A DNA stretch of 64,000 nt from a virus, in IMG/VR virus record IMGVR_UViG_3300033512_000218, positions 1-64,000 of that record; one strand, 5' to 3'. The notes beneath the pieces were generated by a model that searched no databases, was not told the origin of the DNA, and worked only from the letters and a program-made list of their open reading frames with translations. The translations under genes were made by a program, and so were the position numbers. Shown here one piece after another: positions 2,847 to 58,593 of this stretch (positions are counted from its first letter, which is position 1; every line of letters starts with the position of its first letter).

Positions 2847-3919
2847 AATATATCAATCCATTTTTGTTTAACTTCCTTTCTTTTTTCTTCATGGTCTGTT
2901 TTTACATCAGTAATATTTTCCCAATCATTTATTAATAATTGTCCTACTTGCTGTTTATATACATCTTCATTTTTGGGATGATTTTCAAATCGTTTTTGAA
3001 ATCTTTCTTTTTGTTTTTTATTTGGATGATTAGTTAATAAAAAATCTCTAAATTCTTTCCAATTATTATAATGAGTAGGTAATTTTTCATTTGAATACAT
3101 TTGTTTTTCTTTTGCATATCTCATTGCTGTATCAATACCTTTTACTCTTTTACATAACCATTCAAATGTATCATATTCAAATTCGGGTAAATCTGTTAAA
3201 CATCTATAACTTTTTTCATGTATTAAACATGATACCCTCATTTCTTCTTTATGATAATCCTTTGCAAATTGATAATCATATATTTTATTATATCTAATAT
3301 TTTCATCATAAATATATCTCCAAATATCATCAAATCCCCAATCATAAATAGGATAAAAATTTATAAGATTATTATTAGATGTTTTACTACTCCAAGCAAT
3401 ATTATTAATTGCTGGATGTTTTGTTACTGCTCTATATCTATTAAGACTTTCATTACTTCTTAATCCTATTAATTGTGCTGTTGGTTTTGTATATTGTTTT
3501 TCTATATTAGGAATTAGTTTTTCCCATGTTAAGTTATTAGAAAATCCTATGTCTTTTATAGAATCAGTTTCAAATGTTCTTATATTATTACCGTCCCAAC
3601 AATGTAAATAATCTTGTTCATAAGATACTGAATTTGTCATGTAAAATGATAATTGATACCATTTCATATTTACATTTGATAATTTAGATATATAACGTAT
3701 TATATTTATAGTATCTTTATATTCAGCTTCTTGGTCAATAAACATAACATCTATAAATCTATTTCGTTTTATAGCCTCCTTCCAAGTTAAATGAAATAAT
3801 ACAGAACTATCCTTACCTCCACTAACTGATACACTTATATTTTCATACATATCAAATAATAGTGAAATTCGTTCTTGTGAAGCTGTTAATACTGATTTTT
3901 TTCTATAAATTCTGCTCAT
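2843..3919 (-). CDS. PAPS-reductase family protein (IbrA-like)
   Basis: PP-loop SVSGGKDS, FIDQEAEY, IGLRSNESLNR, YPIYDW, MRVSCLIHE. Confidence 0.88.
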   Translation of the reverse strand: MSRIYRKKSVLTASQERISLLFDMYENISVSVSGGKDSSVLFHLTWKEAIKRNRFIDVMFIDQEAEYKDTINIIRYISKLSNVNMKWYQLSFYMTNSVSYEQDYLHCWDGNNIRTFETDSIKDIGFSNNLTWEKLIPNIEKQYTKPTAQLIGLRSNESLNRYRAVTKHPAINNIAWSSKTSNNNLINFYPIYDWGFDDIWRYIYDENIRYNKIYDYQFAKDYHKEEMRVSCLIHEKSYRCLTDLPEFEYDTFEWLCKRVKGIDTAMRYAKEKQMYSNEKLPTHYNNWKEFRDFLLTNHPNKKQKERFQKRFENHPKNEDVYKQQVGQLLINDWENITDVKTDHEEKRKEVKQKWIDIL

Positions 3920-4502
3920 ACGTTAATGATTGTCTTGTACTACTTCTTCTTTTATCTATCATAGAAATACCTATTCTATGATTAACTAAATTAGGAATAA
4001 CAATCCAATATTTTAATTTATTTTGTTTAAAAAATTGTGCCATTACAATATCTGTAGGACATCCTTTTTCATTCATTGTTTTTTCATATTCTTTTGCAAA
4101 TATATATAATTCATTTGCTAATCCTTTTGGTAAATAATAACATTGTTGCATTAGAAATTTACTTCCTGCTTCATATCTACTACCTATTATAATATCATTT
4201 TTTCTCATTGAAAAGAATTGGATAATATCATTAGGTCGTTTTGATATTTCATTAAGTATTTTATTATAAAAATCTTTACATAATACTATATCATCATCCA
4301 TTTGTACAGTTGCATTATTACCTACTAATTTCCATCCTCTTAAATAATTCTTCCATACAGATGTTATAATATCATTATCAGAAATAAAATCATCATAATT
4401 AACAATTAAATTATTTATATTTAAATTAAGATAATTAATATAACTTTCTCTTCCTTTACATGTTTGTACTATAAAAGTAGGTAAATTTGTTTCTAAGTTC
4501 AT
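3903..4502 (-). CDS. putative GT-A fold glycosyltransferase
   Basis: VQMDDDIVLC (DxD) and C-terminal PNLVNH. Confidence 0.5.
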   Translation of the reverse strand: MNLETNLPTFIVQTCKGRESYINYLNLNINNLIVNYDDFISDNDIITSVWKNYLRGWKLVGNNATVQMDDDIVLCKDFYNKILNEISKRPNDIIQFFSMRKNDIIIGSRYEAGSKFLMQQCYYLPKGLANELYIFAKEYEKTMNEKGCPTDIVMAQFFKQNKLKYWIVIPNLVNHRIGISMIDKRRSSTRQSLTYEQNL

Positions 4503-5481
4503 TATTAAAAATTTTATTATAAAAATAACTTTCTAATTTATTATTTGTTAAATTTAATTGAATAACTTTTTGATTATCATTTAACTCTGATTCAATATAT
4601 ATCCAATCATGTGGTTTTACAATAGGCATTTCAGCCAAAATAATTGTATCAAATTTTGTATATAATGAAGGATTAGAATGTATTGATATAAAACTTACAT
4701 TTTTATTTTCCATATACTTTAAAAACATTTTTGGGTATATTACTAAACAATTAATTGCTATTGCAACATTACCATTTAAGTTTTTAGTTATATCATTTAT
4801 TATATTAAATTTAGTTTCAATTAAATTAATTTTTTCGCTACATGTATTATATAGTTTAATTGGATTTTTAAAATCTTCTACTTGAAGTTGTTTTGTATTT
4901 TCGTATTCTTTTATATCATTATCATTCATTTGCCAAGTTATTACTTCTCTATTTTTAAAGAAATATTCATAATCTTGAATATAATACTCACTTATTTTTT
5001 CTTTTATTATTTCAAACGAATGTGCTGTATTTATTGTTCCATCATTTTGTTCTTCTAAATAATTTGATTTAAATGTATTATATGAATTATATCCTAATAT
5101 TTCTTTACCTAAAAACCAAAAAGGATAAAATATTTCGTATGGTTCTGTATAAAAAGGAACTACATCAGTAACAATAATATTATTAATTGATTGACTAATA
5201 TCTTTTAAATACTTCTTTTTTCCATCTCCAAAAAATATAAACTTTAAAACATTATCAATTATCAATAAACTATTTTTTGTAAATGTATTTACAAAGGTTA
5301 TCCAATTAGAATTTTTATTTAATTCTTTTAACGGTAATATAATAGCATTAATATTATCAAATATATTTTTTCTATGTTCTTCACATAAAATATAAACATA
5401 ATCTGGTTTTATTTCAGATATTGATTTTTTTATAAATGATACTTTATTTTTATCGCTTTTTGAAACATAAAATTTTTTCAT
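4456..5481 (-). CDS. hypothetical protein, possibly a degenerate SF2-helicase-like fold
   Basis: LLIID, PYEIFYPFWFLGKEILGYNSY loosely SNF2-like; no Walker A; first gene of the IbrAB-like operon. Confidence 0.4.
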   Translation of the reverse strand: MKKFYVSKSDKNKVSFIKKSISEIKPDYVYILCEEHRKNIFDNINAIILPLKELNKNSNWITFVNTFTKNSLLIIDNVLKFIFFGDGKKKYLKDISQSINNIIVTDVVPFYTEPYEIFYPFWFLGKEILGYNSYNTFKSNYLEEQNDGTINTAHSFEIIKEKISEYYIQDYEYFFKNREVITWQMNDNDIKEYENTKQLQVEDFKNPIKLYNTCSEKINLIETKFNIINDITKNLNGNVAIAINCLVIYPKMFLKYMENKNVSFISIHSNPSLYTKFDTIILAEMPIVKPHDWIYIESELNDNQKVIQLNLTNNKLESYFYNKIFNNELRNKFTYFYSTNM

Positions 5482-5588
5482 AATACATTTTTTATTTTAT
5501 ATAAATTAAATAAAAAAACACTAAATGTTTGATTTAGTGTTTAAATATATTGAAATTATTTTATACCTTTATTTTTTTTATATAGTTT

Positions 5589-6767
5589 TTATCTTGTGTA
5601 TATAAAATGTGGAATAGTATTAAGTATTCCAGTAATACTTTCATTTTCTCGTTGAATAACTTCCAATTGATTTACATTCATCATTTGTTCAAGTTGTTCT
5701 CTTAATTGTTCAATTAGATTTTGTCTTAATTCCATACCTTCACTTTTAAGAGAATCTCCATTTAAACTTACTTCACTATCAGGAATAGGAATACTTGAAT
5801 ATTTTCCTCTAATTTCACCCAATAATATTTTTGAACATGCAAAAGTTAATTCTCTTATCCATTCTTTTCCAGGTTGATTTATTTTACTATATTGTATAAT
5901 ACCATATGGAGCATTACTATAATCAGTAATAGTATTTCCATCATCATTATTATTAACAACACTATCCCTATCTTCTATAATAATATAATCAAAATAAACT
6001 CTTGATACATCTGTAATAGGATATGGAAATAATGTTAATTGATTATTTACTAATTTAAAAGTATATGCACTTTTTCTAACAGTCATATTAAATTCAATAG
6101 CTTGTAATCTTAGTAAATCTTCATAAATAGGCATCATAACAAAACTAACTGCTGGACTCATTTTGTCCCAACCAAATTCACTCATCATATAATTTGTACC
6201 AACACCTGTACCAACGTATGGGTCAAAATAACGAGATATTGCAGGAGGAGCTTCATGATATACTTTTTTAATTTCAATTGATTTACCTGGAACATTCAAT
6301 TCTGCCCATTCATTTAAATTATATGTTTGTTTGTTTAGTATTAAATCAATATATCCTTTATGATATGTTATAGTTCCACCAGAACCTGCTTCAGAACCAT
6401 ATTCTTTAGCTAAACGTATAATTGAACCTAATCCTGATTTAACTTGTTTATTTGTTAAATCTTGACTTGTTGAAGCACCTTTAATTCTTAATAAGTTTTC
6501 TCTTATTTTATATTTATTTAATTCAGATGTATATGTATAAATAGCATCTTCAAAACAAGTGTAAATATTAATATCTTGTAATTCAACATCAACTAAAGGA
6601 TAACCTAATTTATATGCTACATATTTTGCTATTCTTGGAGCATCACTTTGAAATTGTATATCATTATCATAATATCCAAACGGAGGTAATCCTTCAACTG
6701 GTCTTGGATGATTATCCCATACAGGTATATTATCAATTAAATCATTTGGAATATATTCTTTACTCAT
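5589..6767 (-). CDS. putative neck / head-tail adaptor protein (T4 gp13-like)
   Basis: LGYPLVDVEL near N-terminus and LGEIRGKYSSIPIP..VSLNG near C-terminus; late motif upstream. Confidence 0.7.
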   Translation of the reverse strand: MSKEYIPNDLIDNIPVWDNHPRPVEGLPPFGYYDNDIQFQSDAPRIAKYVAYKLGYPLVDVELQDINIYTCFEDAIYTYTSELNKYKIRENLLRIKGASTSQDLTNKQVKSGLGSIIRLAKEYGSEAGSGGTITYHKGYIDLILNKQTYNLNEWAELNVPGKSIEIKKVYHEAPPAISRYFDPYVGTGVGTNYMMSEFGWDKMSPAVSFVMMPIYEDLLRLQAIEFNMTVRKSAYTFKLVNNQLTLFPYPITDVSRVYFDYIIIEDRDSVVNNNDDGNTITDYSNAPYGIIQYSKINQPGKEWIRELTFACSKILLGEIRGKYSSIPIPDSEVSLNGDSLKSEGMELRQNLIEQLREQLEQMMNVNQLEVIQRENESITGILNTIPHFIYTR

Positions 6768-6776
6768 AATTTTTAA

Positions 6777-6785
6777 TATAAATAC
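6777..6785 (-). promoter_or_regulatory. putative late promoter GTATTTATA
   Basis: ~10 nt upstream of neck gene ATG; recurs before virion genes. Confidence 0.55.
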
Positions 6786-6850
6786 ATTTTAACATTTATT
6801 AACACTAATTAATTTAAAATACACTTTAATAATTAAAGTGTATTTTTTTT

Positions 6851-6859
6851 GTATTTATA
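6851..6859 (+). promoter_or_regulatory. putative late promoter GTATTTATA
   Basis: just upstream of ATG 6872. Confidence 0.5.
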
Positions 6860-6871
6860 TTAAATAATAAA

Positions 6872-7153
6872 ATGAATAATATAGATAAACTAATATATGA
6901 TGTAAATATTCTAATACAAATATTAGAATATAAAATTAAACGTGTTGTTAGAAATAACAAAATTGTTAAAAAGAAAACATGCGGAGAAGGATATAAATTT
7001 AATAGTAATACAAATAAATGTGAAAAAATGTCCCCACTTGAAATTATAAATAGAAGACGTTCACAAAAAAGGGCATCATTTAAACGTAAATCAAAATCTT
7101 CTCAAATAAATAGAAAACGTAATAAATCAAATCAAAAAAGAAAATCATTTTAA
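6872..7153 (+). CDS. small, highly basic protein (possible virion DNA-binding protein)
   Basis: K/R-rich C-terminus, two Cys; late motif upstream. Confidence 0.55.
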   Translation: MNNIDKLIYDVNILIQILEYKIKRVVRNNKIVKKKTCGEGYKFNSNTNKCEKMSPLEIINRRRSQKRASFKRKSKSSQINRKRNKSNQKRKSF

Positions 7154-7162
7154 ATTGATATA

Positions 7163-7555
7163 TTAAAAATAAACATAACAATTCGGAAGAAGCATTTTTA
7201 TTTCATTTCTATTATCCAAAGAAATATCATTACCTTTTAAATGAAGTCGTGTTAATGATGTAAGGTATTTTATCTCCTTAGGTAAATATGTTAATTGATT
7301 ATTACTTAAATCTAACCAGGTTAATTTAGTTAATTTTTTTATTTCATTTGAAATATTTGATATTTTATTATTACATAAATAAAGTACTACTAAATCAGTA
7401 TACTCATTAATATAATCAGGTATTATTTTTATATCATTATTATTTAAATTTAATAATGATATTTTTTTATGATTTAAAGAATTAAATAATGGGAAATTAT
7501 TCAAATTTGTATTATTTAATTCTACTGTTTTGTTATTTTCGTCTATATTATTCAA
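7163..7555 (-). CDS. leucine-rich repeat protein
   Basis: LxxLxLxxNxL repeats (LTWLDLSNNQLTYLP). Confidence 0.85.
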   Translation of the reverse strand: MNNIDENNKTVELNNTNLNNFPLFNSLNHKKISLLNLNNNDIKIIPDYINEYTDLVVLYLCNNKISNISNEIKKLTKLTWLDLSNNQLTYLPKEIKYLTSLTRLHLKGNDISLDNRNEIKMLLPNCYVYF

Positions 7556-7572
7556 TATTTATTAGTTTTAAA

Positions 7573-8016
7573 TTATAAATTTAATATTCTTTGTAGTATA
7601 TATAACCCAGCAATTAAACATATACCTTTTATTAATAAATAAAACATTAAACTTGTAGGAGTTTTAAATATTTTCTTTAATATTATATCAAATAAAGAAG
7701 TATTTCCTATGTATAGAGGATGTTTACCACTTACAATATTAACTATAAAATCAAATATTCCAAATCTAACAAGTGAATATCCAATTAGTAATACTGATAT
7801 AAAATAAAATGTGTTATTTTTTAGTAATATTAAAGCTGTATTACTTAATAGAACAGGAGTTAATACTAAAAATAATAATGATAATATTGTTAATGCAAAG
7901 AAAAAATGATATAAATATCCTAATAATTTATTTTCTTTATACGTAAATGCTCTAATTCTAACTCCATCTGCAACAGAATTAAATATAATCGAAAGTGTTA
8001 ATAATAGTGTAATCAT
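7573..8016 (-). CDS. multi-pass membrane protein
   Basis: ~4 hydrophobic segments; GTATTTATA motif at 8032-8040 (-). Confidence 0.65.
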   Translation of the reverse strand: MITLLLTLSIIFNSVADGVRIRAFTYKENKLLGYLYHFFFALTILSLLFLVLTPVLLSNTALILLKNNTFYFISVLLIGYSLVRFGIFDFIVNIVSGKHPLYIGNTSLFDIILKKIFKTPTSLMFYLLIKGICLIAGLYILQRILNL

Positions 8017-8197
8017 AATTTGTTGTTTTTATATAAATACTAAAAAGGATAATTTAGTTAAAAATTATCCTTTCATCTTTACTCATCTTTATTCAAATTT
8101 TTAAAAATATGTTTTACTATTATTATTCCTAAAACTAAACCACAAACAATTACCGTAGCAATTATTCCTCCAATAACCAAAATTGCTATATTCATAT

Positions 8198-8581
8198 TTA
8201 TCTATTTTTATAATCATTTACGAAATCAACCATTTTATTATATACAAGTTCAAAATTATTATTATATTCTTTAAATAACCAATAATATGTTGAACTATTA
8301 CCTCCACATTCATAATCAATATCAACACCTATTCCAATATTAAATATATAAACATGAATATGCCAACCATTATAGCAACTTCCTGCGTATTTAAAATAAC
8401 ATGAGCTAATATAATCTATTTTTTCATTTTCTATTATATTATAACTACAGTAACTATCATTTTGTCTATATATAAATCCTTCAGTATTAATAAAGTTCAA
8501 TGTTTCAGGATAAAATATTTCTGTGTTGATATCAGGTGTATTATTTTTTGGTATGTCATTTAATGATTTTAAATTATTCAT
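8198..8581 (-). CDS. hypothetical protein
   Basis: 127-aa ORF. Confidence 0.6.
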   Translation of the reverse strand: MNNLKSLNDIPKNNTPDINTEIFYPETLNFINTEGFIYRQNDSYCSYNIIENEKIDYISSCYFKYAGSCYNGWHIHVYIFNIGIGVDIDYECGGNSSTYYWLFKEYNNNFELVYNKMVDFVNDYKNR

Positions 8582-8972
8582 TATCTTCCTCTTTTGAAAT
8601 TAAATTTATTTTTATATCATTATTAATTATAAGACAATCTTTTAATATAGTTGGATTAAAATCAGTTTCTGAATTAAATATATAAATTCCATTTAACTCA
8701 TTTCCAATAAGTTCAGTTATATCTAAAATATTATCTTCTTCAAATAATTCAACTGGAACAATTGATAATATTCCACTATTGCAATATAATCTAATATCAT
8801 TTTTATTATTACTGTAGATAAATTCAGGTGCTACAATAGTTGTAAAAACTTTACAACTAAATATCACATTTTCACTATTTTCAAAATAATTTGTTTCTTT
8901 TGTTATAGTATCAAATGTTAATTCGTTGAACATATAACTCAAATCACCTAAATAATAAGTTCCTTTTTTCAT
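8574..8972 (-). CDS. hypothetical phage protein
   Basis: GTYYLGDLSY N-terminus and NSGILSIVP, a pattern I recall from phage hypotheticals. Confidence 0.6.
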   Translation of the reverse strand: MKKGTYYLGDLSYMFNELTFDTITKETNYFENSENVIFSCKVFTTIVAPEFIYSNNKNDIRLYCNSGILSIVPVELFEEDNILDITELIGNELNGIYIFNSETDFNPTILKDCLIINNDIKINLISKEEDNE

Positions 8973-50465: not shown

Positions 50466-50798
50466 ATGAAAAATAAACTAAAAATTGAAATAAGATTAAT
50501 TTGGTATTTTATTGAATCAATGTATACAAAATTATTAAGACTGTTTCATATTAATAAAGATAAATCAATTATTCCTAAATGAATGTATTGCTATGTAATG
50601 GATGAAGAACTAAATAAACAAAAACCTACTTCAGAAGAGGGATATTATATAAAAACATGCAAATATTATAGAAGTACTCCAAAAACAAAAGGAATAGCAT
50701 GTACATATACAGGTTATTATGGATTTGATTTTGGTCTTTATGACCAATGCAAAATTTGTGGAGAAAATGATGAAATAGATGAAAGAGATTTAATATAA
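50466..50798 (+). pseudogene. Cys-rich hypothetical gene with in-frame TGA at 50580-50582
   Basis: ATG 50466 reads in frame to DKSIIPK*MYCY. Confidence 0.5.
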
Positions 50799-50814
50799 AT
50801 AAATATATTTAATT

Positions 50815-51024
50815 ATGATAGTTGATATTAAATGCCATAAATGTAAAAAAGAATTTGAAGCAGAATGGAATGTGAGAGGAAAATGTCCTAATTGTGAAAA
50901 CAAATATGATTGGACATGGGATGGTGAGTTGTGGAGTGATTTTGAAACTTGTTTTCCAATATTTGAAAGTGAAACGGAAGGTGTTAAAAACTCTTTTTTA
51001 CTTGTAATAGATTGGGATTTTTAA
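50815..51024 (+). CDS. small zinc-ribbon protein
   Basis: CHKC and CPNC. Confidence 0.65.
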   Translation: MIVDIKCHKCKKEFEAEWNVRGKCPNCENKYDWTWDGELWSDFETCFPIFESETEGVKNSFLLVIDWDF

Positions 51025-51026
51025 AT

Positions 51027-51092
51027 TTTAACATTTATTAAGATAATTAAATTTGTATTTTTACTTTATTTATATTATCTTTATAATATAAT
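51027..51092 (+). promoter_or_regulatory. early promoter repeat upstream of cassette array
   Basis: consensus with TATCTTTA variant. Confidence 0.7.
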
Positions 51093-51210
51093 TTAAAATG
51101 AATATTAACCAACAACTGATATTAGGACAGAAACAATGGCTTATATTTGTTGTAAGCAAATAATCACTAAATTGTATGTTATGTACTTTTATCATAATAC
51201 ATTAATCAAA

Positions 51211-51447
51211 ATGGAAAATATAAAAATGAGTTTTAAAGATGCCCCTGTCGGTGCAAGATTTAAGTATCCAAATGATACAAGCGGAAATATTTGGGTTAAA
51301 ATTAATTCATATCCACAAAGTAGATTTGAAAGCGGATTAGGATTGATTTGTAAATGGGAAGGAAATATAAAAAGTTATCAATCTTTTTGCTCGTTTAGTG
51401 ATGAAAATAATGGAATTTCATTTGAAACTGAAATCGAGTTATTATAG
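51211..51447 (+). CDS. cassette 1 hypothetical protein
   Basis: MENIKMSFKDAPVGARF...; stop just before site 1. Confidence 0.65.
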   Translation: MENIKMSFKDAPVGARFKYPNDTSGNIWVKINSYPQSRFESGLGLICKWEGNIKSYQSFCSFSDENNGISFETEIELL

Positions 51448-51448
51448 T

Positions 51449-51581
51449 TGCTAACGGTTGCAAATAAACACAGTAAAAGATATGAAAGAACAAATTTTAG
51501 AAATAGCAGAAAAACTTAGATTAGAACTAATAACTGAATACGAAGCACAAAACCTTTTATTTGGTTTATTTAGTGTTATAC
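51449..51581. repeat. attC-like site 1
   Basis: TGCTAAC..aaataaac..agtaaaag / cttttatt..gtttattt..GTTATAC. Confidence 0.7.
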
Positions 51582-51691
51582 AACGAAGTGAACAGTTGGT
51601 TGCTTTTGTAAAATGGTTAGAAGCTAATTCAGACCACTCAATTGATAGAGGTTGGATAGAAGAATATATTGAAGCAACCAATTGTGTATAA
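51482..51691 (+). CDS. cassette 2 hypothetical protein (starts in hairpin loop)
   Basis: MKEQILEIAEK...; stop TAA lies inside GTATAAC. Confidence 0.7.
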   Translation: MKEQILEIAEKLRLELITEYEAQNLLFGLFSVIQRSEQLVAFVKWLEANSDHSIDRGWIEEYIEATNCV

Positions 51692-51807
51692 CGGCTGAGT
51701 ATTGGCGTTGTTGCCATCATAAACGATTATTAATAACACTAAATTATAAAATTATGACAAAAGTTTCAGAAAACCACGAAGGCAATAACGCTAATACTTT
51801 GTTAGCC
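51686..51807. repeat. attC-like site 2
   Basis: GTATAAC ggctg agtattggcgttgttgcc / ggcaataacgctaatact tt GTTAGCC (16/18 plus 2 G.T). Confidence 0.85.
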
Positions 51808-51978
51808 ACAGTTATTCCTCAATCAAAAGAAGAGTTGTTAGAATGTATTCAAAATTTGATGGGTGTATTTGACACACCAGTTTCAAGAAGAGCAATAAAG
51901 GGTGAATTTGCCGATGAAGTTCGTAAGATAGGTCGTCAAATTTTGGAAAGTAATGGTAAATCAATGTACGATATATAA
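51754..51978 (+). CDS. cassette 3 hypothetical protein (starts in hairpin loop)
   Basis: MTKVSENHEGNNANTLLATVIP... Confidence 0.7.
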   Translation: MTKVSENHEGNNANTLLATVIPQSKEELLECIQNLMGVFDTPVSRRAIKGEFADEVRKIGRQILESNGKSMYDI

Positions 51979-51982
51979 TTGT

Positions 51983-52074
51983 GGCTAACGTATCGTGTAT
52001 GAGCAGTGGCACTTGTACACACTTTCAAATTAGCTACAACGATTATGTGCCATTGCTTATACACGGTGTTAGTG
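51983..52074. repeat. attC-like site 3
   Basis: GGCTAAC gtat cgtgtatgagcagtggcac / gtgccattgcttatacacg gt GTTAGTG. Confidence 0.88.
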
Positions 52075-52109
52075 ACAGTACTTTTTTTAATAATCTAATA
52101 ATCAATTAT

Positions 52110-52664
52110 ATGAAAGCTGAAAAACAAATAATTTACGATGACGAAAATGCAGCCAGATTCGTTGAAAATATCAAAGGTTGGGTTGATATTAATAATCAAT
52201 TTTATGGGAATAATTCAGATTCTGAACATATGGCACGTTGGTCAAGTTGCACACATAAAAAATGTAAATGCGGAAAGCTAATAACTAAAGGATGGACGAA
52301 ATGCGATGAATGTAGAACTAACTCCGAAATTGAAAGATATAACCAACTTACATTTAAAGAATATAATGGTGATATAGTTTATTCACATTATGCTGACCGA
52401 TACTTTATGGATTCTGATGAAATAGAAGATTATTGCTCTGAGGAAGAAATTGAGACTAAAGATTTGAGGCTTGTATTTTGCGAACCAAATAAATTTAGCC
52501 AAATATATAGTGACTATTGGGAAGATGTATTGCAAGAAGATTCAGAAGGCGAATTACCTACGAAGTTACAAGAGGCTTTAGATAATTTAAATAAAATCAT
52601 TTCTGAAATGCCTCCAGCGAGTTATTGCCCAAGTAAAACACGAACTGAATATCGTAGCGTGTAG
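52110..52664 (+). CDS. cassette 4 hypothetical Cys-containing phage protein
   Basis: MKAEKQIIYDDENAA...EHMARWSSCTHKKCKCG...CDEC. Confidence 0.75.
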   Translation: MKAEKQIIYDDENAARFVENIKGWVDINNQFYGNNSDSEHMARWSSCTHKKCKCGKLITKGWTKCDECRTNSEIERYNQLTFKEYNGDIVYSHYADRYFMDSDEIEDYCSEEEIETKDLRLVFCEPNKFSQIYSDYWEDVLQEDSEGELPTKLQEALDNLNKIISEMPPASYCPSKTRTEYRSV

Positions 52665-52670
52665 TATTGG

Positions 52671-52765
52671 CACTAACGGTTGGGTGTATGAAACGTAACC
52701 TAACTACAAACTTTAGTATTAACCACTGAACTATAATAGGTTATGTTTTATACACCTTGTTATAT
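52671..52765. repeat. attC-like site 4
   Basis: CACTAAC ggttg ggtgtatgaaacgtaaccta / taggttatgttttatacacc tt GTTATAT. Confidence 0.88.
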
Positions 52766-52862
52766 GCAGTGCGGACTTATAGTGGAAATGTTGATACGAG
52801 AGATGAACCTTTTTGTTTTATTTTTTGTGCGGTGGGAAAGTAATTAACTTAATAACTAAAAT

Positions 52863-53435
52863 ATGAAATACGAAATAATATACGCTGATCCAGCTTGGGA
52901 ATACAATACAAAGGAATGTTTGGCTAAAACATCAATACTTAATGGAGAATTGAATACCCATTATAGCACAATGACATTGAAAGACTTAAAAGCATTAGAC
53001 GTGCAAAGTATTTCAAATAAAAATTGTATGCTGTTTTTGTGGGTTGTAAGCCCGATGTTAAAAGAAGGTATTGAAGTGATGGAAGCGTGGGGCTTTAAAT
53101 ATGCCACAATAGCTTTTATATGGCACAAGCAAAGAACAAACCCTGGACATTATACAATGAGTGAATGTGAAATTTGCTTGGTAGGGAAGCGTGGCACAAT
53201 ACCAACTCCAAGAGGAGCAAGGAATGTAAGGCAATTTTTATCTGAAATGCGAGGCAAACATTCTGCTAAACCTAATGAAATAAGAACGAGAATTGATACA
53301 ATGTTTCCAACTCAAAATAAAGTAGAATTATTTGCAAGGCAGAATGTTTTAGGATGGGATGCTTGGGGTAACGAATGCGAAAACTCTATAACTATTGGAG
53401 GGGAGGAAAAAAAAATTAAAACAAATTGCGTATAA
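52863..53435 (+). CDS. cassette 5: MT-A70 family adenine methyltransferase
   Basis: IIYADPAW, HYSTM, LFLW, WGFKY, HSAKP, ELFAR, GWDAWGNE; stop inside GTATAAC. Confidence 0.92.
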   Translation: MKYEIIYADPAWEYNTKECLAKTSILNGELNTHYSTMTLKDLKALDVQSISNKNCMLFLWVVSPMLKEGIEVMEAWGFKYATIAFIWHKQRTNPGHYTMSECEICLVGKRGTIPTPRGARNVRQFLSEMRGKHSAKPNEIRTRIDTMFPTQNKVELFARQNVLGWDAWGNECENSITIGGEEKKIKTNCV

Positions 53436-53500
53436 CGAATGGTGCTATGAGCAGGTTTGTGTTGCGCCTGCGGCAAACTTGCTTATAGCACGTGTTACTG
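53430..53500. repeat. attC-like site 5
   Basis: GTATAAC gaatg gtgctatgagcaggtttg / caaacttgcttatagcac gt GTTACTG. Confidence 0.88.
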
Positions 53501-53568
53501 GCTGGCTCGGTTAATTAACCACTAAACTCAAATCGAAGCATTAAACAAAAGAATTTAAAAAAAGAGGG

Positions 53569-54330
53569 ATGGAAAAAAATAAAATATATAACGAAAATTG
53601 CCTTGAAACAATGGCTAAAATGCCTGATAAGTTTGTGGACTTAACGGTTACTTCACCGCCTTATAATATGCGAACACGTATAAGAAACGGACAATATACC
53701 ACAAGAGAGAAAAGCGAACATTTTAGCAAAAAGTATAAGTATTTTGACGATGCTTTACCAATAAATGATTTTTACGAATTTCATAGCAGCGTATTGACTG
53801 AACTATTGAGAGTATCAAAAATTGTTTGCTACAACTTTCAAATAGTGACAGGAAGCAAAGAAGCGTTTTTTAAAATCATTGGCGACTTTAACAAGGATAT
53901 TAAGGATATTATCATTTGGGATAAAGGAAGCGGACAGCCTGCAATGCACGGAATGGTTTTAAATAGCTGCTATGAAATGGTATTGATATTAGAAGATGAT
54001 AAAAGAGCAGGGAGAGCAATACAAAATGCTAAATTCAAAAGAGGTGAAATGAATAACATTTTGAGAATCGGCAGAGGCAAAAAAGTATCTGATGTTCACG
54101 GTGCAATTTTTCCAGAACAACTACCATTTGATTTGATAAACGCTTTTTCAGAAAAAGAAGCATTGATTTACGACCCTTTTATGGGAAGTGGAACTACTGG
54201 ATTAGTAGCAAGTAAATTAGGTAGAAACTATATTGGAAGTGAAATAACAGAAGAATATTGTCAAATAGCTGAAAATCGTATTAAAGAGTGCGGTGGGCTT
54301 TTTTTGAACTCTTTTGAACCGAAATGTTAA
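53569..54330 (+). CDS. cassette 6: N4-cytosine/N6-adenine DNA methyltransferase (beta class)
   Basis: VTSPPYN, H.A.FP, YDPFMGSGTT, GRNYIGSEI. Confidence 0.92.
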   Translation: MEKNKIYNENCLETMAKMPDKFVDLTVTSPPYNMRTRIRNGQYTTREKSEHFSKKYKYFDDALPINDFYEFHSSVLTELLRVSKIVCYNFQIVTGSKEAFFKIIGDFNKDIKDIIIWDKGSGQPAMHGMVLNSCYEMVLILEDDKRAGRAIQNAKFKRGEMNNILRIGRGKKVSDVHGAIFPEQLPFDLINAFSEKEALIYDPFMGSGTTGLVASKLGRNYIGSEITEEYCQIAENRIKECGGLFLNSFEPKC

Positions 54331-54355
54331 ATCGCAGCACAAATGTAGAGCTTGC

Positions 54356-54450
54356 CAGTAACGTTGGTGCTATGAGCAGGTTTGCCTTGCAGAAATGTTC
54401 AAATTTAGCACTAATGTTATTGGCAAACTTGCTTATAGCACGTGTTATGT
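54356..54450. repeat. attC-like site 6
   Basis: CAGTAAC gttg gtgctatgagcaggtttgcc / ggcaaacttgcttatagcac gt GTTATGT; arms same as site 5. Confidence 0.88.
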
Positions 54451-54483
54451 GCCGTTTTTATTCACGAATTTAAAATTAGTAAG

Positions 54484-54996
54484 ATGAAAAAATATGATGT
54501 AATTTATGCCGACCCTGCTTGGCGATATGACTTTAGCAAAAGTAATAGCAGGGAAATTGAAAACCAATACCCAACAATGACCATAGATGAAATATGTGGA
54601 TTAAAAGTACCTGCAAAAGATAACGCTGTGCTTTATATGTGGGCAACTGCACCAAAGCTATTGGAAGCAATAAAAGTATTAAATGCGTGGGGCTTTGAAT
54701 ATAAAACACAAGCAGTTTGGGATAAGGAAATTATCGGAATGGGTTATTGGTTCAGAGGACAACACGAAATATTAATAGTTGCTACAAAGGGTAAATTTTC
54801 ACCACCCGAACAACCATTAAGAATAAGTAGTGTGATTAAGGAAAGGAGAACCAAGCATAGCAAGAAACCGATTTATGTAAGAGATATGATTGAAAAATGG
54901 TTTCCCGATTCTGAACGATTAGAAATGTTTGCCCGAACAAGCGGTGAAAATTGGGATGTTTGGGGAAATGAAGTTGAGAGTAGTGTCGCTCTTTAA
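54484..54996 (+). CDS. cassette 7: MT-A70 family adenine methyltransferase
   Basis: VIYADPAW, YPTM, LYMWAT, WGFEYKT, HSKKP, EMFAR, WGNE. Confidence 0.92.
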   Translation: MKKYDVIYADPAWRYDFSKSNSREIENQYPTMTIDEICGLKVPAKDNAVLYMWATAPKLLEAIKVLNAWGFEYKTQAVWDKEIIGMGYWFRGQHEILIVATKGKFSPPEQPLRISSVIKERRTKHSKKPIYVRDMIEKWFPDSERLEMFARTSGENWDVWGNEVESSVAL

Positions 54997-55002
54997 AATG
55001 GC

Positions 55003-55096
55003 ACATAACGGTTGCGTGTATATTTCAGGTTTGCTTGTACGAACTTTGAATTATGCACAAATGCTGATGCAAACTTGAATATACACGTTGTTAGTA
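55003..55096. repeat. attC-like site 7
   Basis: ACATAAC ggttg cgtgtatatttcaggtttgc / gcaaacttgaatatacacg tt GTTAGTA. Confidence 0.85.
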
Positions 55097-55167
55097 ACAG
55101 TAGCATACGACAATGTTAATTTGAAACGCTACACTTTTTATTTTAAATTTTTAAGGAGGGATTTTTT

Positions 55168-56148
55168 ATGAATATTTTGAGTTTATTTGATGGTATAAGT
55201 TGTGGGCAAATAGCGTTGGAACGTGCTAATATTAAAGTTGATAAATATTACGCAAGTGAAATTGATGCCAATGCTATTAAAGTTACGAAACACAACTACC
55301 CAAATACAATACATATTGGAAGTGTGAATGATATTGATTTTAGTAAATACCAAGATATTGATATTTTAATTGGTGGTAGCCCCTGCCAAGACTTATCACG
55401 TTGTAATTTAGAAAATAAGGGATTAGAAGGAGAACGATCTAAATTATTTTTTAAATACATAGAATCGTTAAAAATTACTAAGCCTAAATATTATGTATTT
55501 GAAAATGTTGGAAGTATGACCAATGAGAATATGGAAACCATAAGTGAATATTTCGGACATAAACCAATTTGTATAAACTCAAATTTAGTTTCTCCACAAA
55601 GCAGAGAAAGATATTATTGGACAAATATACCAAACGTAATACCACCAATAGATAAAAACATTTTGGTTAAGAATATAATTGAAAAAACCGTACCCGAAAA
55701 GTATTACTTAAAAATGGATTATGCTTATGTACCAAAGGAAACAAAACATAATTCAAAAAGCGGATTACAATTTGTTTGTGGTATTATTAGCAAAAAGAAA
55801 TGGCTTGATGATGGGAAAGGAAATTCACGTAATTTTTCACAAGGAAATAGAGTTTATTCGATAAATGGAAAATCTTGTACTATAAATGCAAATGCTGGAG
55901 GATTAGGTGGTAAAAGTGGATTATATTATTTAGAAGATGGAAAGGAATTTAGCAAAAGCAATATAAGAAGATTAACACCATTAGAAACAGAACGATTACA
56001 AACAATACCTGACAACTATACCGATATAATAAACGAAACAAATAGGTACAAATGTATTGGCAATGGTTGGACGGTAGATGTAATTGCACATATTCTTTCT
56101 TTTATAAATGGTTTTGAAAAAACCACAGATCGTGGGCAAAAAATTTAA
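55168..56148 (+). CDS. cassette 8: DNA cytosine-C5 methyltransferase
   Basis: SLFDGISCG, GGSPCQ, FENV, QSRERYYW, GNGW. Confidence 0.93.
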   Translation: MNILSLFDGISCGQIALERANIKVDKYYASEIDANAIKVTKHNYPNTIHIGSVNDIDFSKYQDIDILIGGSPCQDLSRCNLENKGLEGERSKLFFKYIESLKITKPKYYVFENVGSMTNENMETISEYFGHKPICINSNLVSPQSRERYYWTNIPNVIPPIDKNILVKNIIEKTVPEKYYLKMDYAYVPKETKHNSKSGLQFVCGIISKKKWLDDGKGNSRNFSQGNRVYSINGKSCTINANAGGLGGKSGLYYLEDGKEFSKSNIRRLTPLETERLQTIPDNYTDIINETNRYKCIGNGWTVDVIAHILSFINGFEKTTDRGQKI

Positions 56149-56196
56149 AATAAAAAATTATTATGCACGAACCTTGCTACGAAGAAAGGCTATTGT

Positions 56197-56241
56197 TACT
56201 AACTATTATATATAAACAAGTGTATTTAATTTATTGATTAT
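56197..56241 (-). other. array-terminal site (candidate attI equivalent)
   Basis: TAACTATTATATATAAA-N10-TAAtTTATTGAtTAT, repeated with identical spacing at 57841-57882. Confidence 0.6.
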
Positions 56242-56306
56242 GAATACAAAAGACAAAACAAATCTTGAAATTTTCGAAGATATTTCTTGAGTTGAAAATT
56301 ATAAAT

Positions 56307-56372
56307 TTTAACATTTATTAACACAAATTAATTTTGATTTAGTTAATAAATGTTTTATCTTTGTGATATAAT
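56307..56372 (+). promoter_or_regulatory. conserved early promoter repeat
   Basis: same consensus. Confidence 0.85.
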
Positions 56373-56388
56373 TTAAAAAATTAAACAA

Positions 56389-56820
56389 ATGAAACATTTT
56401 ATTACATCATTAAGAGCAACCTCAAAAGAAGAAACATTAAATCGTTTTAAAGAAACAAATGATTATAATGAAAATAAAGTATATTCTGCTAATCTCAATT
56501 GGTATACACAGGATTGGGATATATACGAATATGATTTAAAAGAAGGTGATTATATTGCATTTGAATATGAATATGAAATAGGTGACCCTGAAATAATAGT
56601 TGATAATATTTCATTTGTATATGAAGATAGAGTAATCGTACACTTTTTATATGGTTATAAATCTGAAACTTGTACTATTTTAAAAAAAGATATTTTAGCA
56701 ATAGGAAATAAACTAAATGGAACAACAAAATTATTAGGTTGGACTGGCTTATTTGATATTGTAAATGAAACAGATTTTTTAATTAAAAATATAGAATATG
56801 AAACAAAATCTAATAGTTAA
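56389..56820 (+). CDS. hypothetical protein
   Basis: ORF after promoter repeat. Confidence 0.65.
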   Translation: MKHFITSLRATSKEETLNRFKETNDYNENKVYSANLNWYTQDWDIYEYDLKEGDYIAFEYEYEIGDPEIIVDNISFVYEDRVIVHFLYGYKSETCTILKKDILAIGNKLNGTTKLLGWTGLFDIVNETDFLIKNIEYETKSNS

Positions 56821-57010
56821 AAAAGGACAAATAATTAAAACCGAGAGAAATGAAATTTTCAAAGTTAAATTGGAAAATGATAATATTATTACCTGTACAA
56901 TATCAGGTAAAATGAGATTAAATAAAATTCATTTAATTGAAGGTGATTTCGTAACGGTTGAATTATCTCCTTATGATATGACACGAGGTAGAATTAGTTG
57001 GAAAGGATAA
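56798..57010 (+). CDS. infA: translation initiation factor IF-1
   Basis: FKVKLEN...ISGKMR.N.I.L..GD.V.VELSPYD.TRGRI. Confidence 0.93.
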   Translation: MKQNLIVKKGQIIKTERNEIFKVKLENDNIITCTISGKMRLNKIHLIEGDFVTVELSPYDMTRGRISWKG

Positions 57011-57067
57011 ATTCTATAATATTAAATTTATTATCTATTTTATTATTGGTTTTATAAGATTATATGT

Positions 57068-57390
57068 TTATTTTATTAAAGTTGATACTGTTTCTTCTTC
57101 TTCTTCAGTAAAATATGATAATAAATATTTAATTAATTCAATTGATTTTTTGGCGTATTTTTATTTAGTTTTCTTTTTAAATTATCTAATCTATCTGCTA
57201 TTTTAATAATTATTAATTTATTTCTTGTATCAGAATCGAGTTGTGGTAATATTTGAGTTAAATGATGTAAAGGTTCATTATCAATATTATCAGATGTTTT
57301 GGTTTCACTACTTATATATCTGATTATTTTTTTAGCTTTATCATATATATTAAGTTTATCGATATCTCCTCCTTGTTCTATATAATCATG
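57068..57390 (-). pseudogene. truncated, frameshifted RelA/SpoT-type HD hydrolase
   Basis: manual translation HDYIEQG...IIIKIADRLDNL; no start codon; 5' part missing where the solo cassette begins. Confidence 0.7.
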
Positions 57391-57396
57391 AAATGT

Positions 57397-57489
57397 TTAT
57401 AGCAGTTTGCAATATGAAACGGTTGCATTATAAAACGTTTCAATTTTAGTAATAGCTTGACAGCAACAGTTTTATATTGCTTGTTAGGT
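57397..57489. repeat. attC-like site of solo cassette (left core AGC instead of AAC)
   Basis: TTATAGC agttt gcaatatgaaacggttgc / gcaacagttttatattgc tt GTTAGGT. Confidence 0.78.
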
Positions 57490-57504
57490 ATAATAATTTT
57501 TATT

Positions 57505-57843
57505 ATGGGAATGTACACACAATTTATTATCGAATGCAAGTTAAAAGAAGAAACTCCTTACAAAATTATCGAATGTTTAGAAGATATGATAAACGACATT
57601 GATAATGATTTATTTACTTATAATCGAAATCCTTTAAACAATTATTGTGAAAGCAATAAATATTTTAAATCATTTAAAGATTTAGTGTTAAAAGCACATG
57701 GGGATATAAAAAACTATCAGACTGATATTGATAGGTTTACTGATTTTATAAAACCTTATGTGGAAATAGGGTTTTTAGAAAATAATTCTTTTGCTAAATC
57801 ATTATACGAAGGATATGATGAGTGGACGTATTATTGTACCTAA
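57505..57843 (+). CDS. solo cassette hypothetical protein
   Basis: MGMYTQFII...IKNY..DI..F.DFIKPY; bracketed by GTTAGGTATAATAA / TTATTGTACCTAAC; stop inside the AAC core. Confidence 0.75.
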   Translation: MGMYTQFIIECKLKEETPYKIIECLEDMINDIDNDLFTYNRNPLNNYCESNKYFKSFKDLVLKAHGDIKNYQTDIDRFTDFIKPYVEIGFLENNSFAKSLYEGYDEWTYYCT

Positions 57844-57882
57844 CTATTATATATAAAAATCTCAACCTAAGTTATTGACTAT
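57838..57882 (-). other. second array-terminal site (candidate attI equivalent)
   Basis: 17/17 and 13/15 identity to the two boxes at 56200-56241. Confidence 0.6.
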
Positions 57883-57897
57883 ATTTAAAATTATATT

Positions 57898-57963
57898 TTT
57901 AACATTTATTAACATAATTAAATTTGTATTTTTGATTTATTTAATCTATCTTTGTAATATAAT
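57898..57963 (+). promoter_or_regulatory. conserved early promoter repeat
   Basis: same consensus. Confidence 0.85.
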
Positions 57964-57978
57964 TTAAAAAATAATAAA

Positions 57979-58290
57979 ATGAAAGATTTATCAAATTTAT
58001 CAATTAGTCAATTGGAAAAATATAAGGATGATTATATTGCCTTATACGTTGGTGATTTTTATAAACCTTTGGATTATAAAAAAACAATTCAATATATTAA
58101 TCAATTATTGGATTATAAACAAATTAAATTAAAAAATAAAATTCAGAAAAAAATATATACTCAAAATGAAGTATTTGGATTATTATCAAAAATATTACAG
58201 GACTATGACACTGTACTACAAGATAATAATATTAATACATTATTGATACAGTTTGATAAAAGGGAATGGTTTAATAAACACAAAAAATAA
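57979..58290 (+). CDS. hypothetical protein
   Basis: ORF after promoter. Confidence 0.6.
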   Translation: MKDLSNLSISQLEKYKDDYIALYVGDFYKPLDYKKTIQYINQLLDYKQIKLKNKIQKKIYTQNEVFGLLSKILQDYDTVLQDNNINTLLIQFDKREWFNKHKK

Positions 58291-58296
58291 AAAAAT

Positions 58297-58593
58297 ATGA
58301 AAATAATTTATTTAGGACAAGAAATTGATAATTCAGTTGAACAAGAAATTATCAGTGATGAGGAAATTGGATTTAATGTTTCTTATAACTTTAAAGAAGG
58401 AACAAGACCTTATAAAAGTGTAACAGTATATAATGTATCTGGATTTTATTATTTAGGAGAACAATTGGAAAATGGCTTTTCCTTACATAGTCAAATACAT
58501 GACAATGAAATTAATAGTAACATTAAAGATATTGATATAATCAAAATAGATATATCTGATAGAGTATATACTGAATTTAAAAGGTATGAATAA
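58297..58593 (+). CDS. hypothetical protein
   Basis: 98-aa ORF in operon. Confidence 0.6.
   Translation: MKIIYLGQEIDNSVEQEIISDEEIGFNVSYNFKEGTRPYKSVTVYNVSGFYYLGEQLENGFSLHSQIHDNEINSNIKDIDIIKIDISDRVYTEFKRYE

What the first reader, a model, noticed from the sequence alone, without database searches (positions are those of the whole stretch)
56197..57882. Both cassette loci end in the same bipartite non-hairpin site (candidate attI)
Seen: after the last AAC of the long array (56200) and of the solo cassette (57841) no hairpin follows. Both instead continue TAACTATTATATATAAA (17/17), then 10 variable nt, then TAA(T/G)TTATTGA(T/C)TAT (13/15) at identical spacing. On the minus strand this reads TTTATATATAATA-GTTAG. 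Inference: the primary integration site lies at the 3' end of the genes, with an accessory recombinase-binding box. New cassettes would be added at the 3' end, consistent with the 5' end (51100-51190) being the most decayed.
Basis: partly seen in the sequence, partly recalled or inferred. Interest (0 to 1): 0.75.

Follow-up and report, generated by a model that had tools for sequence, protein, structure and literature searches.

The report
Docking site of phage integron-like arrays
The shared sequence that closes each gene-cassette array in this large flavobacterial-type phage is the conserved docking site found just in front of a small recombinase gene in many related phages. In this phage only short stubs of that gene remain, so the arrays look like relics of a phage-borne, integron-like gene-capture device.

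Summary
The exact 17-mer occurs three times in the 139.6-kb virus record: at 56200, at 57841, and at genome position 74846 outside the window. Each copy closes one of the only three hairpin-cassette loci, and none of them folds.

Comparison with other phage contigs shows what the site is. In at least 42 IMG/VR loci the same block (TAACTAYYATATAT) lies about 40 nt upstream of a ~270-aa Xer-type tyrosine recombinase gene, at the downstream end of same-strand hairpin arrays. The window keeps only a 16-codon stub (56240-56287), and locus B keeps no stub at all.

The junction lies at TAAC:
- Four contigs with identical recombinase sides diverge exactly there.
- In four metagenomes, near-identical copies of the last cassette match 55006-56203, from TAAC to TAAC.
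- Ten Polaribacter phage Freya isolates differ by 0-4.9 kb inserted at the equivalent AAC.

The attI-like reading is therefore well supported. The "accessory binding box" is not. No recombinase is present in this roughly 60%-complete record, so the arrays may be fossils.

The recombinase lacks the insertion specific to integron integrases (IntI), and the genes face the site. This is a new variant of the integron kind. The scan has noted the same system before in at least 28 other genomes. The only related paper I found reports arrays without an integrase (CALINs) in phages.

The parts
51026..51098 (+). Copy of the ~70-nt early-promoter-like repeat that reads into array A. Further copies lie at 56306-56378 and 57897-57969, just after the two terminal sites.
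   Evidence: Repeat family D1. About 35 copies genome-wide carry Bacteroidota-type -33 TTTG and -7 TAnnTTTG elements. Promoter function is inferred.
51211..56203 (+). Array A: eight ORFs separated by seven hairpin sites. The two 5'-most hairpins are decayed. The last four cassettes encode DNA methyltransferases.
   Evidence: Folds. Covariance-model hits at 51442, 51679, 51976, 52664, 53423, 54349 and 54996, all on the + strand. Pfam MT-A70, N6_N4_Mtase, MT-A70 and C-5 methylase. GC is 28-36% against a ~20% background.
55006..56203 (+). Last cassette of array A as a mobile unit: TAAC, hairpin, C5-methyltransferase gene (55168-56148), end box and TAAC.
   Evidence: Contigs from four metagenome runs of four studies match it at 95-100% identity. 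In three of the runs the matches start at 55006 and stop at 56203; in the fourth (X3) they start at 55005, and its listed pieces do not reach the right end. In each case the contig continues as unrelated sequence (table 8).
56188..56203 (+). Terminal half-site of array A. This is the end box of the last cassette and finishes in TAAC. It is cassette-derived, not part of the conserved site.
   Evidence: Its reverse complement matches the cassette's own 5' end (55090-55105) at 14 of 16 positions (alignment A7).
56200..56216 (+). Block 1 of the terminal site. TAAC is the junction and the AT-rich conserved block follows it. This is the candidate attI-type core.
   Evidence: Exact 17-mer. Nearly invariant in 16 loci whose recombinases are only 50-63% identical (A3). 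Does not fold.
56227..56241 (+). Block 2: leader and start codon of the lost recombinase gene.
   Evidence: The ATG at 56240 aligns with the recombinase start.
56240..56290 (+). Stub of the recombinase gene: 16 codons plus a stop.
   Evidence: Aligns with the N-terminus of full-length ~270-aa recombinases that follow the same site in L030/L101 and L055/L126 (A1).
57390..57497 (+). Hairpin of the solo cassette (locus B). Its left core is TAGC instead of TAAC.
   Evidence: Fold z = -3.0. Covariance model 79.7 bits.
57505..57843 (+). ORF of the solo cassette (112 aa, no Pfam family). Its stop codon is the TAA of the terminal TAAC.
57829..57857 (+). Terminal half-site of locus B (57829-57844) and block 1 (57841-57857).
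   Evidence: The reverse complement of 57829-57844 matches the cassette's 5' end (57483-57498) at 14 of 16 positions. Exact 17-mer.
57868..57882 (+). Block 2 of locus B. The start codon is lost, and the promoter repeat follows at 57897.

Best explanation
The shared terminal sequence is the double-stranded docking site (attI-type) of a phage-borne, integron-like cassette platform.

Each cassette is a unit made of a core C, a spacer, a hairpin, GTTA plus a 4-nt tag, one gene, the complementary tag, and TAA. Its two ends pair with each other. The + (coding) strand can therefore fold into a full site when the unit is a circle or single-stranded.

A short Xer-type tyrosine recombinase is encoded immediately downstream of the site in related phages. 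It is inferred to exchange strands inside TAAC, between a folded cassette site and the unfolded docking site. Each new cassette then lands next to the site, at the 3' end of the operon, and older ones are pushed towards the distal promoter.

The geometry, read along the folding strand, is hairpins, then docking site, then recombinase gene. This matches a classical integron read on its bottom strand, except that the cassette genes lie on the folding strand and point towards the site.

In this phage all three platforms have lost the recombinase gene, leaving stubs of 16, 0 and 28 codons. They are relics that could be active only with a recombinase supplied in trans.

Shown: the anatomy, the conservation, and the position of the junction. 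Inferred: binding, strand choice, the chemistry, and the direction of growth.
For: (1) Three of three hairpin loci in the record end in the site, and three of three copies of the site follow a hairpin locus. There are no hairpins elsewhere.

(2) The ORFs after the site are the first 16-28 codons of a ~270-aa recombinase (PF00589 + PF13495). This gene is full-length right after the same site in other phage contigs. In the close relative L128 a C-terminally truncated copy (236 aa) follows the same site.

(3) In 16 loci chosen only by the recombinase match, TAAC plus the following AT-rich block is nearly invariant about 40 nt before the ATG, while the proteins are only 50-63% identical. The pattern TAACTANNATATAT occurs just upstream of the gene on the + strand in 42 of 80 loci, once per locus except L105, which has a second copy after a second array (L174 also holds a copy, far from its recombinase gene).

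(4) Of 199 hairpin hits in 44 sources, 198 lie on the recombinase strand and almost all lie upstream of it. Among 97 loci holding the exact 17-mer, every locus with hairpins has them on the same strand as the site and just upstream of it.

(5) Every cassette's 5' end is the reverse complement of its own 3' end, and this includes the three terminal half-sites. The part left of TAAC is therefore cassette DNA and the part right of it is platform DNA.

(6) Contigs L110-L113, from four samples, are identical from TAAC rightwards and unrelated leftwards, with three different cassettes.

(7) The last cassette recurs at 95-100% identity in four metagenome runs. In three of them the boundaries are 55006 and 56203; in the fourth (X3) the match starts at 55005 and its listed pieces do not reach the right end. 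The hairpin therefore travels with the downstream gene, and the terminal TAAC is a true cassette boundary.

(8) Isolates Polaribacter phage Freya_1 to _10 have a recombinase 38% identical to the query. They differ by 0-4.9 kb inserted exactly at an AAC 49 nt before the recombinase ATG. Freya_9 and Freya_10 differ by a single 307-nt unit next to that point.

(9) Hairpin scores and GC content decline towards the 5' end of array A.
Against: - No recombinase gene is present in the 139.6-kb record. Nothing shows that the sites are used in this phage.
- No binding or recombination data exist. The conserved block right of TAAC could instead be conserved as the promoter, operator or leader of the recombinase gene.
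- The recombinase lacks the IntI-specific insertion that integron integrases use to read folded sites.
- The exact 17-mer also occurs in about 70 unrelated virus contigs without arrays, so the word alone is not diagnostic.
- Differences next to the site may reflect loss as well as gain of cassettes.
- The first ORF of each array has no hairpin of its own, so the 5' boundary of the platform is unexplained.
Confidence: 0.75

Rival explanations
1. Only TAAC is the recombination point. The conserved AT-rich block and box 2 are conserved because they are the promoter, operator and untranslated leader of the recombinase gene, not because the recombinase docks there. In this phage they are simply leftovers of the deleted gene.
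For: The block lies at a fixed ~40 nt from the ATG. Box 2 includes the start codon and first codons. In classical integrons the integrase promoter also overlaps attI, so the two roles are hard to separate (general knowledge of class 1 integrons). The subfamily L110-L113 keeps block 1 but has a different leader and spacing.
Against: The block has no Bacteroidota -33/-7 promoter elements of the kind seen about 35 times in this genome. A four-base TAAC alone could not give site specificity. The Flavobacteriaceae chromosomal relatives have a similar TATATA-rich stretch beside the junction although it lies at the 3' end of their recombinase gene, where it cannot be its promoter.
Confidence: 0.12
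2. The site is a phage attachment site (attP) for integrating the whole phage into a host chromosome through the adjacent integrase. The variable genes beside it are ordinary 'moron' accretion next to an att site.
For: attP sites usually lie next to int genes. The authors of the Freya, Leef and Ingeline genomes read the integrase as a sign of a possible temperate lifestyle (PMC8776804). The site has a loose likeness to Xer/dif-type sites; that likeness was judged by eye and not tested.
Against: Three copies occur in one genome, and two or three in another contig, which makes no sense for an attP. The left half of each site is the end box of the neighbouring cassette and pairs with that cassette's other end. 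Cassettes with TAAC-to-TAAC boundaries recur in other contexts. No host junction was looked for.
Confidence: 0.04
3. The three copies are paralogous remnants of one duplicated segment and have no site function. The arrays were built by homologous or illegitimate recombination between repeated hairpins and promoters, as proposed for promoter-stem-loop cassettes of T4-type phages.
For: The promoter repeat flanks all three loci. Hairpin arms fall into a few near-identical types, so they could support homologous exchange.
Against: The site is conserved in dozens of phage lineages whose recombinases have diverged to 50-60% identity. Break points fall on the same four bases in independent comparisons. 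The tags next to the core covary within each cassette, which homologous exchange between hairpins would not maintain.
Confidence: 0.05

Closest known systems
Classical integrons (IntI integrase, attI, attC cassettes; class 1 attI1, Vibrio chromosomal integron, VchIntIA structure 2a3v)
   Same: - One-gene cassettes are bounded by imperfect hairpins with AAC/GTT cores.
- Each cassette's two ends are complementary.
- A non-hairpin partner site shares the core and lies beside the recombinase gene.
- The order hairpins, then site, then recombinase gene along the folding strand is the same.
- The oldest-looking cassettes lie farthest from the site.
   Different: - The recombinase is a ~270-aa Xer-type enzyme. 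It has 27 residues where VchIntIA has 77, so it lacks the IntI insertion, and it scores below the integron-integrase cut-offs.
- Cassette genes lie on the folding strand and point towards the site.
- The array is driven from a distal promoter instead of a Pc promoter at attI.
- The site is AT-rich, with no evident DR1/DR2-type repeats.
- In this record the recombinase gene is absent.
CALINs (clusters of attC sites lacking an integron-integrase) reported in virulent phages, e.g. Polaribacter phage P12002L (Qi et al. 2023, PMC9892861)
   Same: These are phage-borne clusters of attC-like sites with no IntI gene nearby, and methyltransferases are among the cargo. Arrays A to C here would be called CALINs.
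   Different: That paper describes no phage-encoded recombinase and no attI for such arrays. It explains their presence by capture from bacteria. Here the arrays end in a conserved site followed by a recombinase gene or its stub.
Archaeal XerA / bacterial XerC/D with dif
   Same: The best sequence matches of the recombinase are XerA structures 4a8e and 5hxy and NCBIfam NF040815. It has a simple two-domain architecture.
   Different: Xer enzymes act on one double-stranded dif site to resolve dimers. They are not associated with arrays of hairpin-bounded cassettes. The phage proteins score below the XerA cut-off (166-181 against 220 bits).
Related arrays on Flavobacteriaceae chromosomes (e.g. 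Maribacter, locus L211)
   Same: The recombinase is about 45% identical, the hairpins match the same covariance model, and a TATATA-rich stretch lies beside an AAC junction next to the recombinase gene.
   Different: The array lies downstream of the recombinase gene, the hairpins are on the opposite strand, and the cassette genes run the same way as the recombinase gene. The recombinase has an extra N-terminal ~110 aa and passes the NF040815 cut-off.

Membership tests
Integron | Integron integrase (IntI) with the IntI-specific insertion in the catalytic domain | tested here: not met
   The family's recombinase (from L101) aligns to VchIntIA 2a3v in two pieces, with 27 residues where IntI has 77. 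TIGR02249 scores 130-149 bits against a cut-off of 265, and PRK15417 scores 76-87 against 435. No recombinase at all is present in this record.
Integron | attC-type sites: imperfect hairpins with outer AAC/GTT core boxes, an unpaired spacer, an inner stem and a variable loop | tested here: met
   Folds score z -1.5 to -4.6 (five of seven at -3.0 or below). The consensus structure has 12 pairs, 5 of them with compensatory changes. There are 199 model hits in related loci. IntegronFinder's own attC model could not be run.
Integron | Each cassette carries complementary ends, so that a circular cassette reconstitutes one site | tested here: met
   In alignment A7, seven cassettes have 5' ends equal to the reverse complement of their own 3' ends, at 11-15 of 16 positions (five of seven at 14-15).
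Integron | attI: a non-hairpin site that shares the core, lies adjacent to the integrase gene and marks the end where cassettes are inserted | tested here: met
   Position and conservation. Junction at TAAC. Recombinase binding and insertion activity are not testable with these tools.
Integron | Cassette genes read away from attI and are expressed from a Pc promoter at the attI/intI end | tested here: not met
   All cassette ORFs point towards the site and the recombinase gene. The promoter-like repeat lies at the distal end.
CALIN (attC cluster without integrase) | Two or more attC-type sites with no integrase gene nearby | tested here: met
   Array A has seven sites, and there is no PF00589 match in the whole record. 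Loci B and C have one clear site each, so by the usual two-site rule they would not count.
Phage attP next to int | A core identical to a bacterial attB, with the prophage flanked by split sites | not tested
   No search for host junctions was made. Three copies per genome argue against this.
Xer/dif | The recombinase passes the XerA/C/D family thresholds and acts on a single chromosomal dif site | tested here: not met
   Phage proteins score below all Xer cut-offs. The sites are associated with cassette arrays.

The most novel reading that the evidence does not exclude
Flavobacterial and related phages carry their own complete gene-capture machine. It comprises a short Xer-type recombinase without the IntI insertion, an AT-rich docking site directly upstream of its gene, and hairpin-bounded cassettes that fold on the coding strand and insert at the 3' end of an operon. 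Through it, phages trade anti-restriction methyltransferases and other counter-defence genes. The same enzyme family runs arrays of the opposite geometry on Flavobacteriaceae chromosomes. Integron-type recombination would then be older and broader than the IntI clade.
Probability: 0.6. Interest if true: 0.85.

Novelty: new variant of a known kind. Interest (0 to 1): 0.7.

Why it matters
Integron recombination is thought to depend on the IntI-specific domain, and in phages only integrase-less attC clusters have been described.

A conserved docking site that abuts a short Xer-type recombinase gene gives a defined, testable pair of substrates plus an enzyme. The substrates are the site (about 75 bp) and any hairpin cassette. 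With these one can ask whether folded-site recombination works without the IntI domain.

The finding also explains how phages could assemble panels of orphan methyltransferases against host restriction. It gives a sequence landmark for finding such platforms, including decayed ones like those here.

Tried and rejected
- Exact 17-mer scan of IMG/VR. Of 97 stretches, about 70 are unrelated AT-rich contexts, for example upstream of an unrelated gene family repeated in about 10 contigs. The word alone is not diagnostic and is not counted as support.
- Search for relatives of the gene just downstream of array A, 56389-56817. None were found, so no syntenic comparison of this very locus was possible.
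- Rfam scan of 50500-58500. Only two sub-threshold microRNA-model matches, taken as chance.
- Phage GenBank DNA search with the locus. Only methyltransferase-gene similarity.
- The Python machine was lost. No scripted statistics, trees or genome-wide pattern counts could be made after that.
- The covariance model fits the Freya hairpins only weakly. Freya is used only for the position of strain differences.
- Read laying. Parts without cover, and joints with short sides (for example 52065 to 54442, 51526 to 58282), were not used as evidence.
- Box 2 as a direct repeat of the cassette end box. Only the ATTG part matches, so this is inconclusive.
- The sigma-70 promoter scan was not run, because Bacteroidota promoters are not covered by that tool.

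Full report
WHAT IS THERE. The window is the first 64 kb of a 139,610-bp IMG/VR virus record. The record has 22% GC, is linear, and CheckV estimates it at about 60% complete. It has a third exact copy at genome position 74846, outside the window (sequence in L003). No other copy with up to one mismatch exists in the record. Looser matches are as frequent as in shuffled sequence. The second box follows at the same 10-nt spacing in all three copies. The three terminal stretches do not fold better than shuffles, whereas the internal sites are strong imperfect hairpins.

A covariance model built from nine hairpins finds hairpins in only three places in the whole record:
- seven in array A (51442-55104),
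- one in locus B (57390-57497),
- one in locus C (genome ~74150).
Every hairpin locus therefore ends in the site, and every copy of the site follows a hairpin locus.

WHAT THE LEFT HALF IS. Each cassette begins with GTTA plus about 12 nt. This stretch is the reverse complement of the about 12 nt plus TAAC at the same cassette's own 3' end. It is not the complement of the partner arm in the same hairpin (alignment A7). The three terminal half-sites (56188-56203, 57829-57844 and the one in L003) obey the same rule. Everything left of TAAC is therefore cassette DNA, and the conserved platform sequence starts at TAAC. The few mismatches are G against A, which gives G.T pairs only when the + strand folds. 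This agrees with notes by other readers of this genome.

WHAT THE RIGHT HALF IS. Many of the IMG/VR contigs holding the 17-mer continue with a similar short ORF. In L055 and L030 the same site is followed by full-length ORFs of 268-271 aa. These carry Pfam Phage_integrase and the N-terminal SAM-like domain PF13495. The window's ORF at 56240-56287 and the ORF in L003 align with the first 16-28 residues of these proteins. The close relative L128 has the same promoter repeat, an array of five ORFs, and the same site. In locus B even the ATG is gone. The record holds no tyrosine recombinase.

HOW GENERAL IT IS. A scan of IMG/VR with the recombinase returned at least 107 loci, of which 80 were kept.
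- I aligned 16 loci chosen only because the protein match starts at residue 1. In them, TAAC and the following AT-rich block are invariant or nearly so, about 40 nt before the ATG, although the proteins are only 50-63% identical.
- The pattern TAACTANNATATAT occurs in 42 of the 80 loci, on the recombinase strand and just upstream of the gene, once per locus except L105, which has a second copy after a second array (L174 also holds a copy, far from its recombinase gene).
- Of 199 hairpin hits in 44 sources, 198 are on the recombinase strand and almost all are upstream of it.
- Among the 97 loci holding the exact 17-mer, 23 have hairpins, always on the same strand as the site and just upstream of it. 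The other ~70 are unrelated contexts, as expected for an AT-rich word in a very large collection.
- One contig (L105/L054) has a second array ending in the site with a decayed recombinase start. This is the same relic state as in the window.

WHERE THE JUNCTION LIES. Three independent comparisons agree.
(a) Contigs L110-L113 come from four samples. They are identical from TAAC through the recombinase gene and unrelated to the left, with three different neighbouring cassettes.
(b) Logan contigs from four runs of four studies (three of lake water, one of wastewater) contain the last cassette of array A at 95-100% identity. In three of the runs the match runs from 55006 to 56203, from the TAAC that opens the hairpin to the terminal TAAC; in the fourth (X3) it starts at 55005 and its listed pieces stop short of the right end. 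In each case the contig continues as unrelated sequence (table 8). This shows two things. The hairpin travels with the gene downstream of it, and the terminal TAAC is a real cassette boundary.
(c) Ten isolates of Polaribacter phage Freya have a recombinase 38% identical to the query. They differ by 0 to 4.9 kb inserted exactly at an AAC 49 nt before the recombinase ATG. Freya_1 has nothing there. Freya_9 and Freya_10 differ by one 307-nt unit next to that point. Freya_8 lacks three distal genes. The paper describing these phages read the integrase only as a sign of a possible temperate lifestyle (PMC8776804).

MECHANISM (inferred). The unit that moves is C-spacer-hairpin-GTTA-tag-gene-tag'-TAA. 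Exchange inside TAAC between such a unit and the unfolded site places the unit directly left of the AT-rich block. The solo locus B has exactly this form. Read along the folding strand, the order is hairpins, docking site, recombinase gene. This is the order of a classical integron read on its bottom strand. The difference is that the cassette genes lie on the folding strand and point towards the site. New cassettes therefore arrive at the 3' end of an operon driven by a distal promoter repeat. The decline of hairpin scores (26.9 and 39.6 bits against 60-90) and of GC towards the 5' end of array A fits older cassettes lying farther from the site. Recombinase binding to the AT-rich block, the strand used, and the chemistry are not shown.

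FAMILY MEMBERSHIP. The recombinase is not an integron integrase. It scores below the TIGR02249 and PRK15417 cut-offs. Its best relatives are archaeal XerA structures. It has 27 residues where VchIntIA has the 77 that include the IntI-specific insertion. The system works like an integron but fails that defining feature, and it also fails the usual gene orientation. In this record it is, formally, a set of integrase-less arrays (CALIN-like).

The only paper I found on such arrays in phages reports CALINs, including one in a Polaribacter phage with methyltransferase cargo. It describes no phage recombinase and no attI (PMC9892861).

Flavobacteriaceae chromosomes carry a recombinase that is about 45% identical. 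There the arrays lie downstream of the gene on the other strand, and a TATATA-rich stretch lies beside an AAC junction. Because that stretch lies at the 3' end of the gene, it argues against a pure promoter role for the AT-rich block.

WHAT REMAINS OPEN.
- Whether box 2 has any role beyond being the leader of the gene. It differs in the L110-L113 subfamily.
- Whether the AT-rich block is a binding site, a regulatory element, or both.
- What forms the 5' boundary of the arrays, since the first ORF of each has no hairpin of its own.
- Whether this phage still has a working recombinase in its unsequenced part.

The scan has noted the same kind of system before in at least 28 other genomes. I did not rely on those notes as evidence.

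Noticed in passing
whole record; in the window e.g. 16434, 17761, 22060, 28166, 29210, 51030, 56310, 57901: About 35 copies of a ~70-nt repeat. It has Bacteroidota-type -33 TTTG and -7 TAnnTTTG elements and an inverted repeat around the -33 region. It is probably a family of early promoters with an operator. Each cassette locus lies downstream of one copy.
   Followed up: partly
window 56798-57010 (+): A phage-encoded homologue of translation initiation factor IF-1 (Pfam eIF-1a, E 1.8e-20), lying between array A and locus B.
   Followed up: no
window 57011-57390: About 380 nt just upstream of the solo hairpin with no ORF of 40 aa or more on either strand. By eye, a long open frame without a start codon lies on the minus strand. 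It may be a gene cut by the insertion.
   Followed up: no
window ~52810-52845 and L128 ~5095-5130: The same ~30-nt promoter-like leader (TTTG ... TAttTTTG) precedes two different methyltransferase genes in two phages. This suggests that some cassettes carry their own promoter (by eye).
   Followed up: no
L211 (Maribacter sp.) 3662-8783 and about 25 other Flavobacteriaceae/Bacteroidota loci: Bacterial chromosomes carry a 376-aa relative of the recombinase, about 45% identical, that passes NF040815. It is followed by cassette arrays whose hairpins match the phage model on the opposite strand. A TATATA-rich palindromic stretch lies at the junction.
   Followed up: partly
L181-L187 (Polaribacter phage Freya_1, 6, 8, 9, 10; MT732463-MT732472): The length differences among the ten isolates (44.0-48.9 kb) lie in one block of small genes inserted at an AAC 49 nt upstream of the integrase. 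The GenBank record of Freya_1 starts within that AAC.
   Followed up: yes
L026 3790-5980 (-): A 531-aa TnpB-like ORF with a zinc-ribbon motif lies next to a 195-aa serine-recombinase-like ORF. This looks like an IS607-type element, 1.5 kb downstream of that phage's terminal site (by eye, not tested).
   Followed up: no
L105 10901 / L054 (contig IMGVR_UViG_3300014502_000005): A second array in the same phage ends in the same site followed by a recombinase start whose ATG is lost. This is the same relic state as in the window.
   Followed up: partly
window 51461-51694: Near-identical pieces of the early cassettes also occur in lake-water contigs. The matches end within 2 nt of the TAAC at 51689-51692 (records 10 and 25).
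   Followed up: no
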